Below are positions 39,173 through 51,374 of a stretch of DNA of 64,000 nt, piece after piece. The translations under genes and the position numbers were made by a program. The stretch's first letter is position 1. Each line of letters starts with the position of its first letter. Location: NCBI GenBank assembly GCA_023250155.1, contig JAHFBG010000010.1, positions 17,832 to 81,831 of the forward strand, written 5' to 3'. Source of the stretch: Candidatus Melainabacteria bacterium (GTDB taxonomy: Bacteria > Cyanobacteriota > Vampirovibrionia > 2-02-FULL-35-15). The notes under the pieces are model-generated. The model did not search any database and was not told the origin of the DNA. It saw nothing but the letters and a program-made list of their open reading frames with translations.

Positions 39173-42100
39173 ATGAAAATAATACCTACATTTCTTAGAA
39201 ACTTTATCGCCAATGTTTGTACCACTAAACATAGACAACTAGTTAATAGTGGTGCAAAGCCTGAACACATAAGTGTCTATAATGAAGCCAAAGATGAATA
39301 CTATAAAAATAACTGGAAAGTAAAACAATTATTTGATTTAGATAAAGAGTTAATCATAGCCAATGTATCACCAGAACAATTAAAAGCTTGTAATGAAGTT
39401 ATGATTCAATTTCATAAGAATGAAGTTGATACAAGAAATCTAACTGATGTTTTAGTTAAAACACTTTTACTTAAAGCTACACCTGATCAAATTAAATTGC
39501 TTAGTCAAGGCTTGGTCGGTACTTCTAAAGAATATAAACAAGAGTATGATGCTGGAAGGGATATAGCAGGAGGAGATTATATAACGGTAGAACAATCTGT
39601 AATAAACAAAAACCAACTTATTTTTTTTAGCTTGGTTAGCGCTAATCCCAATACTGCTCAGTGTGAACTGCTGAAATATGTACATGATATAAAATCACAC
39701 AATGTCTGGTCTGGATTGGATTGGAAAGGGTTTGTTGAAGCATACATAAAGCTCTTAAATAAAAAACCTACTAATGAACAATTTCAAAGCTTTAAAGAAT
39801 TTATTAAGGTTTATATGGAGGATTCTAAGAAGCGCGAGCATTTAGTAGAACTAACAAATCATTTTACAGATTTAATCCCAAAATTATATCTAAAAAATGA
39901 TTGGGAATCCTATGGTAAAGCATTTTCAATTTATACAAACAATAAATGGTATTTAGATGATTTTATACATAATGTAGCTGATTTAGCAGGTAGAAAAAAC
40001 TTTGATAAACAGTTAGATGTATATATCAGTGCTTTAAAACAAATTCGATATTTAGCAATAGAGAAGAGTGGCGATGGTTTCCCAAGATATGAGCATGTAG
40101 TAAAAACTTTTAATGATATTTTTTTTCCTGAAATAGCAAACAAAGATCTCCCGAGCAAATACTGGGATTTATTGTCTACAGTATTAAAAAAAGAAGCCAA
40201 TGTTGAAAATAAAGTTTTTCGTACAGACTGGGATGTAATTGAGTTTACTAAATCATTTGTAGATCTTATAAAACTTAGTCTAAATAAAGAGCATCTTGAA
40301 AACTACCATGACATTATTTCTTTTATATATAAAAATTGTAAAAACATAAGTGAAACTACTCCTATTATTAAGTTTGTTTTAGCAAAACCGAGTAAAGAGC
40401 TAATAGAAATATATAAGAAAGCATTGTCTCTTTATACTGTCACTGATCTTCTTAGCTTTCCCGTTTCTCAAGATCGCCTAAAGACCTTATTAATAGGAGA
40501 GTTCAATAGATTAGCTAAAGCTAATCCTCCTAAAAAACTACTTGAAATACTTAACGATAACATGACTACTACTAAAAGTTTTATAGGCAAGCAAATTATA
40601 AAATGTGCTGCATTGGTCGAACCATTTAATACTTATGAAGCAAACAAAGATAAACTAACTAAGCTTAGTTCTGAGATGAAACAATATTTAGAAGATGAGT
40701 GGAAAGAAGAGCTTACTGATGTTAAAAAATTAGATGAACCTAACAAGGTAGATCCCCTACTGAATGAGGTTATTATAAAAAATTTATACCCTCTGTCATT
40801 AAGTGATAAAGAATGGGATTTGTATAATCAAGCTATCTTATATGATAAGGGCTCCACCTATTTAAATTTAAAAATAAGTTTAACTAGTGATTTTGTGCGC
40901 TTAATTAAATCAAAACCAACTCAAGAAGAATGGTTATTATATGAAGATGTTTTTTCTTATTATAAAACAAACAAACTTAAGTCAGATCGAACAATCTGGA
41001 ATCTAGCTTATTTATTTGAAGCTAAACCAGAAAAAGAAAAATTAGATAAATACAAAGAGTGGATAGTTTTATTTCAAGAGAAGGATTTAAGTTTAACTGA
41101 ACTAGTTAAACTTTGTGCACAACTTGCTAAGCCAGGTAATTTCAATAAGTATTTTAATGAGTGCAATAAAGAAATAAAACTTGCTTTAGAAGATGAGGCA
41201 TTAACTAAGGATTTGGATGTATTTTGCAGGTCACTAACTCAATTAATCGATAATGATTGTCTTCCTGAACATATTAAATTGTGGGTTGAAGTATTTGACT
41301 ATCACACTAAAAATCATTGGAGTGTACCAGGTGAAATGTTTGTTAGAGCCGTACAAGATAAGGTTCCGATGCAATTACTTAGAAATTATAGAAACTCATT
41401 AGTAAATGGAATCATAAAGTCACAAGAGGAATCAAAGAAACTTTTAACTGAGTTTCGATATCACTCTGCTATTTATAGAATTCTTAGACAAGAAGGAGAT
41501 ATTGATGCTGCAAGAACTCTTCTTCAAAATGAAGCAAAAAGCGATGAATTGCCAATTAATTTATATATGTCAAGTTCAAAGCATAAGATTCTTAATCCTG
41601 AAGCTATAAAAATACAAACTGAAACGGAAAGAGTTGTTAAAAGATCTTTTGATAAGAGCTATGGTTTCAGTGCACTGACTTTTGATTCTAAAAGATCACC
41701 TACGAAAGAACCTGCTCTATTAGCTCGTTTTGGTAATGATGTAGGAGATATAGAGTATATTAATGCTAAAGACATAAGTCTCTTTCCTGGTAAAGGCTTT
41801 ACAATTTCTGATTTTGATTTAAACAAGATTCTGGTTCCCGATGAAAACAATACAGAAGATCCACATCACCTTTATAAAGAAGCATGGCCATGGGCAAAAG
41901 ATGTATTTGATGACTTTCCAAAAACTGAGTTTGTTTTTACACGAGGATTTATGGCTGTACTAAACAAGGATAAAAAATATATCTTAAATGGAATACCTTA
42001 CAGTTATTTAGTAGTAAATAACCATCACCACAATAAAGGCTGTGATACTGCATATTTAGTACCTACAAAAATATTGGAAGAAAAACTTAAAGATACTAAA

Positions 42101-42937
42101 GTACCATATAAAGACATTATTGGATTTTCTAAAAACCATAAAGATATAAATGAAAATGGTTTAAAAATAGAAGATTTAATTGGGGCTTCAGATGATAATG
42201 CGCCCATATTAAATCTAGGATGGGGAACAAACTTTGGTGGTGGCCTATGTAATGCTTATCCACTAGATTCCAAACCTTATTTTGAATGGGAGAAAGAACT
42301 AAGACCTCAAATTCATCATACAAAAGACTTTTGGGAAAGGGTCCATAAGTCACATATTACTGGTACATATGAGACCAGTATGTCAAGAGATCCAAAATTC
42401 AAAGAACTATTAAAACCTTTACGGCAAGCACATGATGATGTTTATAAGATTACGGATAACTATCAAAATCTTTATGACTTATTTAGATTATATTTTTCTA
42501 TGTGGAAAAAAGGATTTACAGTAGGTGAAAAAGAAATTACAGAAGAAGATTTATTTCAAGAACTTGAACCACAAAACTTAGAGCAAGATGATAATGATTT
42601 TGTCTATAATCCAAACTCACTTAGGATGTTAAATGAAGCCTATAAATGGCATGAAGGAAGAAGCCTTGGAATAGAAGATAAAAATTATTATCCAGTTCTT
42701 GTTATAACTGATACCCTTGATTATTGGAGTCAACCTAAGTCACCAATTATGCTGGACACCTATGACATGATGCTTTATACAAATGGTAAAAAAATCCCAT
42801 TAAATCAAGAAGGAGTGGATGATATAGAAAAAGAAATATGGTATAAATTAGTGATGCCACAAGCCAAAGACTCTATAAAAGATCTAAGGTTTTATGATAG
42901 GAGAGATCTCGACTTATTAGGAGGAAATAATCAATGA
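39173..42937 (+). CDS. Large unclassified protein, paralog 1 of 3 (1254 aa): conserved N-terminal ~110 aa, helical-repeat array, conserved His/Cys-rich C-terminal ~480-aa domain
   Basis: Shares MKIIPTF..LV.AGA..EHI...SPEQLKACNEV N-terminus. C-terminal blocks YGFSALTFD.KR.PTKE, NNHHHNKGCDTAYLVPT, NLGWG.NF.GGLCNAYPLDSKPYF and HKSHITG are shared with the other two. Confidence 0.8.
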   Translation: MKIIPTFLRNFIANVCTTKHRQLVNSGAKPEHISVYNEAKDEYYKNNWKVKQLFDLDKELIIANVSPEQLKACNEVMIQFHKNEVDTRNLTDVLVKTLLLKATPDQIKLLSQGLVGTSKEYKQEYDAGRDIAGGDYITVEQSVINKNQLIFFSLVSANPNTAQCELLKYVHDIKSHNVWSGLDWKGFVEAYIKLLNKKPTNEQFQSFKEFIKVYMEDSKKREHLVELTNHFTDLIPKLYLKNDWESYGKAFSIYTNNKWYLDDFIHNVADLAGRKNFDKQLDVYISALKQIRYLAIEKSGDGFPRYEHVVKTFNDIFFPEIANKDLPSKYWDLLSTVLKKEANVENKVFRTDWDVIEFTKSFVDLIKLSLNKEHLENYHDIISFIYKNCKNISETTPIIKFVLAKPSKELIEIYKKALSLYTVTDLLSFPVSQDRLKTLLIGEFNRLAKANPPKKLLEILNDNMTTTKSFIGKQIIKCAALVEPFNTYEANKDKLTKLSSEMKQYLEDEWKEELTDVKKLDEPNKVDPLLNEVIIKNLYPLSLSDKEWDLYNQAILYDKGSTYLNLKISLTSDFVRLIKSKPTQEEWLLYEDVFSYYKTNKLKSDRTIWNLAYLFEAKPEKEKLDKYKEWIVLFQEKDLSLTELVKLCAQLAKPGNFNKYFNECNKEIKLALEDEALTKDLDVFCRSLTQLIDNDCLPEHIKLWVEVFDYHTKNHWSVPGEMFVRAVQDKVPMQLLRNYRNSLVNGIIKSQEESKKLLTEFRYHSAIYRILRQEGDIDAARTLLQNEAKSDELPINLYMSSSKHKILNPEAIKIQTETERVVKRSFDKSYGFSALTFDSKRSPTKEPALLARFGNDVGDIEYINAKDISLFPGKGFTISDFDLNKILVPDENNTEDPHHLYKEAWPWAKDVFDDFPKTEFVFTRGFMAVLNKDKKYILNGIPYSYLVVNNHHHNKGCDTAYLVPTKILEEKLKDTKVPYKDIIGFSKNHKDINENGLKIEDLIGASDDNAPILNLGWGTNFGGGLCNAYPLDSKPYFEWEKELRPQIHHTKDFWERVHKSHITGTYETSMSRDPKFKELLKPLRQAHDDVYKITDNYQNLYDLFRLYFSMWKKGFTVGEKEITEEDLFQELEPQNLEQDDNDFVYNPNSLRMLNEAYKWHEGRSLGIEDKNYYPVLVITDTLDYWSQPKSPIMLDTYDMMLYTNGKKIPLNQEGVDDIEKEIWYKLVMPQAKDSIKDLRFYDRRDLDLLGGNNQ

Positions 42938-51135: not shown

Positions 51136-51374
51136 AAACACAATTTTTTTCTGTAAGACCCGTACTATTAAAGACAGCTACAGCTCCACCAATAGCACCA
51201 CCTGAGCCTGAAGTAGAACCAATTGTAGAGCCAGAAACAGAGCCCGCTGAAAGACCTACACCAACACAACCAATTCCACAACCAGTTCACCAGCCAACTC
51301 CAACCGTAGTTCCTGAACCAGGTCCTACACCAGATGGTGAGCCACTCCCTGGAATATGTCCTATTATTAGATAA
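51132..51374 (+). CDS. Small proline-rich protein (80 aa), translationally coupled to paralog 3 (ATGA overlap), C-terminal GEPLPGICPI motif
   Basis: Pro-rich body and C-terminus conserved with ORF 42934..43167. Confidence 0.6.
   Translation: MKTQFFSVRPVLLKTATAPPIAPPEPEVEPIVEPETEPAERPTPTQPIPQPVHQPTPTVVPEPGPTPDGEPLPGICPIIR

What the first reader, a model, noticed from the sequence alone, without database searches (positions are those of the whole stretch)
39173..51374. Tandem triplet of large, unclassifiable paralogous proteins with coupled small Pro-rich partners
Three head-to-tail genes (1254, 1260 and 1321 aa) share a conserved N-terminal ~110 aa (MKIIPTF..LVKAGA..EHI...VSPEQLKACNEV) and a strongly conserved ~480-aa C-terminal domain, but have divergent middles. 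I can match no known family, Walker motif or transposase/phage signature. Two of the three end in an ATGA/ATGATGA overlap with a small proline-rich ORF. The locus is bracketed by TA modules and an AAA ATPase. This is the profile of a lineage-specific effector, toxin or surface family undergoing diversification.
Basis: partly seen in the sequence, partly recalled or inferred. Interest (0 to 1): 0.85.

Follow-up and report, generated by a model that had tools for sequence, protein, structure and literature searches.

The report
Uncharacterised repeat proteins with proline-rich partners
Three neighbouring giant genes belong to a rare, unstudied bacterial protein family: its conserved end is predicted to fold unlike any solved structure, and it nearly always sits next to a tiny proline-rich partner gene, so this is a real unknown rather than a variant of something familiar.

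Summary
Three head-to-tail genes (1254, 1260 and 1321 aa) share a ~525-aa C-terminal domain (59-64% identity) behind fast-diverging N-terminal regions (21-28%). Genes A and C each overlap a small proline-rich ORF. They are true paralogues, and the A-partner-B junction recurs in two independent assemblies.

The family is not lineage-specific. It has 326 clusters at 50% identity, in contigs from 31% to 55% GC. The closest named genomes are Melainabacteria MAGs.

The main new result is a conserved two-gene module. In 21 of 25 distinct gene ends examined, a 55-118-aa, 24-38% proline ORF follows. It has its own Shine-Dalgarno site, dN/dS of 0.15-0.37 and conserved motifs (PV[KRH]QPxP; [DE]P[IL]PGxCP[IFV]).

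Function is unknown. My best inference is a large protein whose conserved domain binds or acts on its disordered partner, with the solenoid as a variable specificity arm.

The parts
39173..42937 (+). Gene A, 1254 aa. N-terminal alpha-solenoid (39173-41350) plus the conserved C-terminal domain (41351-42934).
   Evidence: It is identical to database protein P0017. The C-terminal domain model has pLDDT 86 and pTM 0.89.
42920..42924 (+). Shine-Dalgarno site GGAGG for the A partner ORF. It lies inside the last codons of A (..LLGGNNQ*), 9 nt before the ATG at 42934.
42934..43167 (+). Partner of A: 77 aa, 32% proline. Motifs: AAPAAPP, PVKQPTPTP, and GEPIPGICPINDP at the C-terminus.
   Evidence: dN/dS is 0.21-0.22 against the L014 and L010 partners.
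43226..47008 (+). Gene B, 1260 aa. N-terminal alpha-solenoid (43226-45385) plus the conserved C-terminal domain (45386-47005). It ends ..FYDRRDLNM* with no internal Shine-Dalgarno site and no partner.
   Evidence: The N-terminal model has ~40 helices and pLDDT 77. Its orthologue P0019 in L014 is 52% identical and collinear.
47009..47169 (.). AT-rich 161-nt spacer where B's partner ORF would be. The partner appears to have been lost in this genome, because the B orthologue in L014 still has one at L014:3845-4066.
47170..51135 (+). Gene C, 1321 aa. N-terminal alpha-solenoid (47170-49554) plus the conserved C-terminal domain (49555-51132).
   Evidence: It is identical to P0016. Its N-terminal 800 aa has no relative other than itself among 5.8 billion proteins.
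51118..51122 (+). Shine-Dalgarno site GGAGG for the C partner ORF, inside the last codons of C (..NNGGTNQ*).
51132..51374 (+). Partner of C: 80 aa, 29% proline. Motifs: TAPPIAPP, PVHQPTPT, and GEPLPGICPIIR at the C-terminus. Its last 8 nt overlap the convergent cyclase gene (51367-51981, -).
   Evidence: dN/dS is 0.26-0.35 against the L011 and L021 partners.

Best explanation
The locus holds three diverged copies of an undescribed two-protein module.

The large protein has no signal peptide and two parts:
- A fast-evolving alpha-solenoid of ~20 two-helix hairpins. These are built from a new 36-37-residue repeat (consensus P-[ST]-x-E-[QE]-[WL]-x-[LIV]-[YF]-K...L-[TI]-x-x-F-A-x-L-[VI]).
- A conserved ~525-aa alpha/beta domain of apparently novel fold. 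Its family-wide conserved polar residues are the FPGxG loop (872-875), R924, N949-x-H951, D1195, R1239 and R1243. They all sit at strand ends or hairpin turns, which suggests one pocket.

The small protein is 55-118 aa, intrinsically disordered and proline-rich. It is made from the same transcript by coupled or Shine-Dalgarno-driven initiation.

I infer the following; none of it is shown:
- The partner docks through its three conserved short motifs onto the conserved C-terminal domain, as its substrate or regulatory subunit. The motifs are a hydrophobic N-terminal strand, PV[KRH]QPxP, and [DE]P[IL]PGxCP[IFV].
- The most likely chemistry is at the near-invariant Gln or at the Cys-Pro.
- The variable solenoid binds a third, copy-specific target.
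- Tandem duplication with solenoid divergence therefore diversifies targeting while keeping the same core activity.

What is shown: the gene structure, the family, the predicted folds, the conserved partner and purifying selection on it.
What is inferred: the physical complex, catalysis and the targeting role.
For: - The partner ORF follows 21 of 25 distinct family gene ends. These range from 24% to 60% identity to A and from 31% to 55% GC.
- The partner has conserved short motifs in an otherwise low-complexity sequence.
- Shine-Dalgarno sites lie 5-10 nt upstream in most loci, and there are ATGA overlaps.
- dN/dS is 0.15-0.37 while dS is 0.2 to 2.
- The C-terminal domain is always C-terminal and is the conserved part. 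A small set of polar residues is conserved across 140 representatives and across 41 distant members.
- The C-terminal model is confident.
- The N-terminal part is all helical hairpins.
- The N-terminal part evolves faster than the C-terminal part in paralogues and in the B/P0019 orthologue pair.
Against: - No direct evidence for a complex, for catalysis or for expression.
- No homology or fold match suggests any chemistry.
- B, the first gene of the L001 pair, L022 and L029/L030 lack an adjacent partner. The partner is therefore not strictly required in cis.
- The conserved Cys of the large protein (GGLCNAYP) and the HKSH motif are not family-wide. This weakens thiol-based mechanisms.
- Conserved residues could be structural rather than catalytic.
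- The model coordinates could not be inspected, so the 'single pocket' rests only on secondary-structure positions.
Confidence: 0.35

Rival explanations
1. Toxin or effector with an immunity, antidote or chaperone partner. The C-terminal domain would be a harmful activity delivered to or used against other cells. The downstream proline-rich protein would neutralise or escort it, and the tandem array would be an arms-race product.
For: - A large multidomain protein is followed by a small, translationally coupled ORF.
- Tandem paralogue arrays recur (window; L001 and L006).
- The family is rare and patchily distributed.
- In this window the locus is an insertion-prone spot next to two toxin-antitoxin modules.
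Against: - The polarity is reversed relative to polymorphic toxins: here the C-terminus is conserved and the N-terminus is variable.
- No LXG, PAAR, RHS, MIX, WXG or TPS domain, or any Pfam domain at all, in the window proteins or in 49 other members.
- No signal peptides.
- No PADLOC hit.
- A 30%-proline disordered protein with net charge from -8 to +11 is unlike known immunity proteins.
- B and L022 would be unprotected toxins.
- No secretion system is linked in any locus.
Confidence: 0.2
2. A RiPP-like (ribosomally synthesised, post-translationally modified peptide) system. The small ORF would be a precursor whose conserved Cys, Gln or prolines are modified by the large protein. The large protein would be a new class of peptide-modifying enzyme, and the product would be the functional molecule.
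For: - A short peptide gene is strictly adjacent to a large unknown protein.
- The peptide has conserved terminal motifs with a single near-invariant Cys-Pro and one conserved Gln.
- An enzyme copy without its own peptide (B) is tolerable under this model.
Against: - No RiPP recognition element and no LanM/LanC, YcaO or radical-SAM domain.
- No conserved protease or exporter among the neighbours.
- The peptide is downstream, 55-118 aa long, and conserved at both ends rather than showing a leader/core pattern.
- The variable 700-aa solenoid has no role in this model.
Confidence: 0.15
3. A non-enzymatic structural or scaffolding pair. The alpha-solenoid plus globular domain would assemble with a rigid polyproline-II spacer protein (as in TonB or the small proline-rich SPRR proteins) into a cytoskeletal or envelope-associated structure.
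For: - An all-helical solenoid.
- The partner's composition resembles polyproline spacers and mammalian SPRR proteins. That comparison is from my own knowledge and was not tested.
- No catalytic motif is recognisable.
Against: - No transmembrane segment or signal peptide.
- The family is rare and accessory rather than core.
- Three diverged copies in tandem are unusual for a structural component.
- The conserved Arg/Asn/His/Asp set looks more like a binding or catalytic site.
Confidence: 0.1
4. Artefact: assembly duplication of one gene, or small ORFs that are chance reading frames in C-rich DNA.
Against: - The paralogues differ by 36-41% in the conserved domain and by more than 70% elsewhere.
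- The A-partner-B junction is present in two independent assemblies.
- The partner ORFs show dN/dS of 0.15-0.37, Shine-Dalgarno sites and conserved motifs across 20 loci.
Confidence: 0.01

Closest known systems
Helical-repeat array plus C-terminal catalytic domain proteins (e.g. PPR-DYW editing factors, OPR/HPR-RAP proteins, TPR-fused enzymes)
   Same: The architecture is alike: a variable-length array of ~35-aa two-helix repeats, followed by one conserved C-terminal domain. The repeats diverge faster than the domain.
   Different: - No Pfam TPR, PPR, HEAT, Sel1 or other repeat match.
- The period is 36-37 aa with its own consensus.
- The C-terminal domain matches no deaminase, nuclease or other fold.
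- There is no evidence of nucleic-acid binding.
Polymorphic toxin / effector-immunity gene pairs
   Same: A large protein is followed immediately by a small coupled ORF. Paralogue arrays are tandem. The distribution is patchy.
   Different: - The conserved and variable ends are swapped.
- There are no trafficking or toxin domains.
- The partner is a disordered proline-rich protein.
- Some copies lack a partner.
RiPP precursor plus modifying enzyme
   Same: A short peptide gene with conserved motifs lies adjacent to a large protein of unknown activity.
   Different: No recognised RiPP enzyme or recognition element, no protease or exporter, and an atypical peptide length, position and conservation pattern.
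Proline-rich spacer or substrate proteins (TonB proline-rich region; mammalian SPRR cornified-envelope proteins; Cys-Pro heme-regulatory motifs)
   Same: Composition and local strings such as VKQP, KEPC and CP[IVF] resemble them. This comparison is from my own knowledge only.
   Different: No homology was tested or expected. There is no TonB N-terminal anchor or C-terminal domain. No transglutaminase-like Cys-His-Asp triad is conserved in the large protein. Heme binding was not tested.

Membership tests
Any curated protein family (Pfam-A, NCBIfam, PADLOC, PHROGs) | A profile HMM match at or near the curated threshold | tested here: not met
   A, B, C and both partners gave no hit better than E=0.0027 and none near a curated cut-off. 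Another 49 family members had no Pfam hit near a curated cut-off: the 8 distant members gave only two E~0.008 matches below gathering score, and the 41 diverse members gave none.
Any solved structure | Sequence or fold similarity to a PDB chain | tested here: not met
Polymorphic toxin / effector-immunity | N-terminal secretion or trafficking domain (LXG, PAAR, RHS, MIX, WXG100, TPS, signal peptide) | tested here: not met
   No Pfam domain. None of 158 sequences has a hydrophobic N-terminus.
Polymorphic toxin / effector-immunity | Conserved N-terminus with a variable C-terminal toxin module | tested here: not met
   The pattern is the opposite: C-terminus 59-64% identical, middle 21-28%.
Polymorphic toxin / effector-immunity | A small cognate gene immediately downstream | tested here: met
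   21 of 25 distinct gene ends. However, the partner is disordered and 24-38% proline (24-35% in the longer reading frames).
RiPP biosynthetic cluster | A recognised modifying enzyme or RiPP recognition element | tested here: not met
RiPP biosynthetic cluster | A leader protease or exporter in the cluster | tested here: not met
   The neighbours differ between loci and include none.
TPR / PPR / HEAT / TALE repeat families | Profile match, or closest fold neighbours from that family | tested here: not met
Type II toxin-antitoxin module | A small toxin of a known superfamily plus a DNA-binding antitoxin | tested here: not met
   The flanking HepT/MNT and MazF/RHH pairs are such modules. The finding's own genes are not.
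Mobile element, phage or plasmid cargo | Presence on phages, plasmids or viral contigs | tested here: not met
   No relatives in IMG/VR contigs, PLSDB plasmids or INPHARED phages.

The most novel reading that the evidence does not exclude
This would be the founding example of an undescribed bacterial system. A novel-fold enzyme domain acts on, or is switched by, a dedicated intrinsically disordered proline-rich protein through that protein's near-invariant Gln and Cys-Pro motifs. A new class of 36-37-residue helical repeats steers the module, and their rapid diversification after tandem duplication retargets it. The system is spread by horizontal transfer across Melainabacteria-like and planctomycete-like lineages.
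Probability: 0.3. Interest if true: 0.8.

Novelty: categorically new. Interest (0 to 1): 0.62.

Why it matters
If the predictions hold, this adds three new things.
- A new protein fold.
- A new natural helical-repeat class, which would be of interest for repeat-protein engineering because its closest structural relatives are designed proteins.
- A new kind of protein-partner module built around a disordered polyproline protein with a single conserved Cys-Pro and a single conserved Gln.

The family is compact (about 300 clusters), has a clear candidate active-site residue set, and has a defined candidate substrate encoded next door. Its function is therefore directly testable. It is also an example of small partner genes that can be missed or miscalled: in L002 the partner ORF was not among the called genes, and an opposite-strand ORF was called there instead.

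Tried and rejected
- **Family libraries:** Pfam, NCBIfam, PADLOC and PHROGs gave nothing for the three proteins, both partners and 49 other members.
- **PDB by sequence and by profile:** nothing.
- **AFDB Foldseek:** the library was unavailable.
- **Word-indexed homologue searches:** these were of limited use. There were 15 hits with the C-terminal domain, only the query itself with C's N-terminal region, and 2 hits with the distant-member profile. The exhaustive HMMER search was what revealed the 326 clusters.
- **First genome scan:** it failed because no conserved stretch was available. It was repeated with a tighter alignment.
- **Promoter and terminator scans:** fewer promoter-like sites than in shuffles, and no + strand terminator. 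Uninformative.
- **Ideas considered and dropped:**
  - Frameshift fusion of the small ORF to the large one. Its offset and frame vary from -14 to +66 nt between loci.
  - Proline-rich antimicrobial peptide. The net charge ranges from -8 to +11.
  - CaaX prenylation box. The Cys lies 4-6 or more residues from the end.
  - Lipobox or sorting signal. There is no signal peptide or transmembrane segment.
  - Transglutaminase- or papain-like triad. No family-wide Cys.
  - Functional link to aguA/aguB. The synteny is seen only among close low-GC relatives (versus).
- **Literature search** for Melainabacteria plus proline-rich: nothing relevant.
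Full report
**1. Observation**

The ORF list and translations reproduce the finding exactly.
- A is 39173-42937 (1254 aa), B is 43226-47008 (1260 aa) and C is 47170-51135 (1321 aa), all head to tail on the + strand.
- A 77-aa ORF (42934-43167) and an 80-aa ORF (51132-51374) each overlap the stop codon of A and C respectively through ATGA.
- B is followed only by a 161-nt AT-rich spacer.

The three-way alignment, scored by region, gives these identities:
- C-terminal ~525 aa: 59-64%.
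- Middle region: 21-28%.
- First ~110 aa: 56% for A/B, but only 30-34% against C.

So the 'shared N-terminus' is really an A/B feature.

With this much divergence the genes cannot be assembly duplicates. The A-partner-B junction is also present in two independent ENA assemblies. Across the whole 33%-GC window only five 40-residue stretches in any frame hold at least 9 prolines. Two of them lie exactly at the ends of A and C.

**2. No known family matches**

- Pfam, NCBIfam, PADLOC and PHROGs give nothing meaningful for A, B, C or the small ORFs.
- Another 49 family members gave no significant Pfam hit: nothing at E<=0.001, and only two sub-threshold matches at E~0.008 among the eight.
- phmmer and a 13-sequence profile find nothing in PDB.
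- tblastn finds nothing in plasmids or phages. A degenerate-pattern scan finds nothing in IMG/VR.

**3. The family**

The word-indexed search found only 15 relatives among 5.8 billion proteins. Exhaustive HMMER with the C-terminal profile found 326 clusters at 50% identity, 193 of them at E<=1e-30. In the full-length members listed, the domain reaches the C-terminus. Members range from 174 aa (some clearly fragments) to 1424 aa. P0016 and P0017 are the window's own C and A.

Related loci span 31-55% GC.
- The only named genomes are two groundwater 'Candidatus Melainabacteria' MAGs, at 44% identity.
- Other loci have planctomycete-type neighbours (PSCyt/PSD1/DUF1501). One has a SWIB-domain neighbour.

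The family is therefore rare but not lineage-specific. It is chromosomal, and its neighbourhoods have nothing in common. The exception is the closest low-GC relatives, where the family follows aguB/aguA (L001, window) or aguA (L006), as seen. In the window, the HepT/MNT toxin-antitoxin pair and an AAA_14/DUF4143 ATPase have been inserted between aguA and gene A.

**4. The C-terminal domain**

AlphaFold2 with an 18-sequence alignment gives pLDDT 86 and pTM 0.89 for residues 727-1254 of A. The predicted layout is as follows.
- Three N-terminal helices.
- A mixed alpha/beta core (fragment residues ~123-340).
- A long helical hairpin interrupted by a disordered acidic loop (393-410).
- A C-terminal beta region (449-515).

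Across 140 representatives the positions conserved at >=85% are listed below. Numbering is that of protein A; I shifted the output by +1 to agree.
- G831-F832, F853, P872-G873-x-G875, R924-G925, Y943, N949-x-H951, L962, P964, G1114, L1153, P1174, D1195 and W1223.

Among 41 distant members the PGxG glycines and the Arg are invariant. N-x-H, the D of LDTxDM and both arginines of DLRFYxR are >=90% conserved.

These polar residues all sit at strand ends or hairpin turns in the model's secondary structure. I read this as one binding or catalytic pocket. That is an inference, because I could not inspect the coordinates. The window's NNHHHNKGC, GGLCNAYP and HKSH motifs are subfamily features, not universal.

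**5. The N-terminal region**

An iterated repeat HMM finds 6-8 clear copies in each window protein. The 35-residue consensus is KPSKEQWELYKDLISYYKENKLPLDELTKGFADLV, and units are spaced 36-37 residues apart.
- Conserved positions: P1, [ST]2, E4, [WL]6, [YF]9, L26, F30 and L33.
- Most variable positions: 3, 22, 24, 25, 28, 29 and 32.

Only about 20 of the closest cluster representatives carry this repeat. More distant members have other helical N-termini.

The N-terminal 800 aa of C has no detectable relative other than itself. B and its orthologue P0019 (L014) are collinear at 52% identity overall. The N-terminal part is about 45% identical, so this half evolves faster.

**6. The small partner (the main new result)**

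I examined every related locus where the large gene's 3' end lies inside the contig. A + strand ORF of 55-118 aa and 24-38% proline starts between -14 and +66 nt from the stop codon in 21 of 25 distinct gene ends. This includes the most distant high-GC members, L002, L003, L025 and L031. In L002 the partner ORF was not among the called genes, and an opposite-strand ORF was called there instead.

The exceptions are:
- the upstream genes of tandem arrays (window B, L001 gene 1);
- L022;
- the 24%-identity pair L029/L030.

B's orthologue in L014 does have a partner, so B lost its partner.

The partners align into the following elements:
- a short hydrophobic N-terminal strand;
- AAPxAPPKPDTKP;
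- a central PV[KRH]QPxPxP, containing one conserved Gln;
- a C-terminal [DE]P[IL]PGxCP[IFVLM], containing a near-universal Cys-Pro.

Net charge varies from -8 to +11.

Most partners have a GGAGG- or AGGAG-type Shine-Dalgarno site 5-10 nt upstream. In A and C that site is encoded by the conserved ..GGNNQ*/..GGTNQ* tail, which B lacks. Nei-Gojobori dN/dS is 0.15-0.37 for dS between 0.2 and 2. These are translated genes under purifying selection, and they form a conserved two-gene module with the large protein.

**7. Mechanism**

What is shown is the anatomy described above. What I infer, at about 35% confidence, is the following.
- The conserved C-terminal domain binds the partner's short linear motifs and probably acts on them.
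- The variable solenoid binds a copy-specific third component.
- Triplication with solenoid divergence therefore diversifies targeting around a constant core.

Rival explanations and the main arguments:
- **Toxin/effector-immunity (0.2).** The position of the small gene fits. Against it are the reversed conservation polarity, the absence of trafficking domains or signal peptides, the disordered partner, and the partnerless copies.
- **RiPP-like precursor plus enzyme (0.15).** The adjacency and motifs fit. Against it are the absence of any known enzyme, recognition element, protease or exporter, and the peptide's atypical form.
- **Structural scaffold (0.1).**
- **Artefact (<=0.01).** This is refuted.

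The confidences do not add up to 1. The remainder stands for explanations I have not thought of.

**8. Comparison and novelty**

In architecture the module resembles repeat-array-plus-catalytic-domain proteins such as PPR-DYW. In gene layout it resembles effector-immunity pairs. Every membership test that I could run failed (see the table).

Three findings support the label 'categorically new': no sequence or fold relative in any library I could reach, a confident model, and a conserved partner of unusual composition. Two caveats apply. AFDB-scale fold searches were not possible, and no function is demonstrated.

I set interest at 0.62. This is a real, compact and experimentally tractable unknown. 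However, dark protein families are common, and no phenotype is attached to this one.

Noticed in passing
window ~25649-26227 (-): A full-length Rfam group I intron (RF00028, 79.6 bits, 25694-25929) lies inside what looks like a split tRNA gene. The 5' half is TCCCGGGTAGCTCAGTGGTAGAGCGATCGGCTGT.., starting near 26227. The 3' half is ..CCGATTGGTCGGAGGTTCAAGTCCTCTCCCGGGAG, ending near 25649. An HNH endonuclease ORF (25841-26173, Pfam HNH E=1.4e-4) sits within the intervening sequence. ARAGORN calls no tRNA. The anticodon would read GUU (Asn) if splicing follows the usual U|...G| rule, but I did not verify this..
   Followed up: partly
window 35230-38974; L001 4096-5999; L006 557-1600: The family locus follows aguB (CN_hydrolase) and aguA (agmatine deiminase) in the window and L001, and aguA in L006. 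In the window a HepT/MNT toxin-antitoxin pair and an AAA_14/DUF4143 ATPase are inserted between aguA and gene A. This synteny is absent from distant members, so it is probably not functional.
   Followed up: partly
window 7460-13684 (-): A 2074-aa protein with eight Vgb_lyase-type beta-propeller stretches (E=1e-264) and a Laminin_G_3 domain.
   Followed up: no
window 51367-51374: The 3' end of the C partner ORF overlaps by 8 nt the 3' end of the convergent cyclase (kynurenine-formamidase-like) gene at 51367-51981 (-). That gene heads a run of minus-strand genes: NUDIX, MazF, RHH.
   Followed up: no
L002 12597-12896 (-) vs 12694-13050 (+); L003 12592-12972 (+): In the high-GC loci the proline-rich partner ORF was not among the called genes, and an opposite-strand ORF was called instead. 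Partner genes of this family are therefore likely under-annotated in public data.
   Followed up: partly
L001 6134-11797; L006 1729-6308: Tandem arrays of the family recur elsewhere. L001 has two genes abutting with 0-nt spacing, and only the second has a partner. L006 has a gene, then a partner, then a second family gene cut by the contig end.
   Followed up: partly
window 23388-24224 (+), 53566-54942 (+), 58211-60436 (+), 61817-63934 (-): Several other poorly annotated ORFs: a dockerin/EF-hand protein, a 458-aa protein with only a weak DUF4423 hit, a 741-aa protein with a weak ATP-grasp hit, and a 705-aa protein with a weak DUF7107 hit.
   Followed up: no
C-terminal domain, fragment residues 393-410 (A residues ~1119-1136) and the equivalent positions in homologues: A disordered acidic loop of very variable length interrupts the long helical hairpin. 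It is expanded to about 100 residues with W/E-rich repeats in P0008, and replaced by a long helical insertion in the planctomycete-like members P0010-P0015.
   Followed up: no
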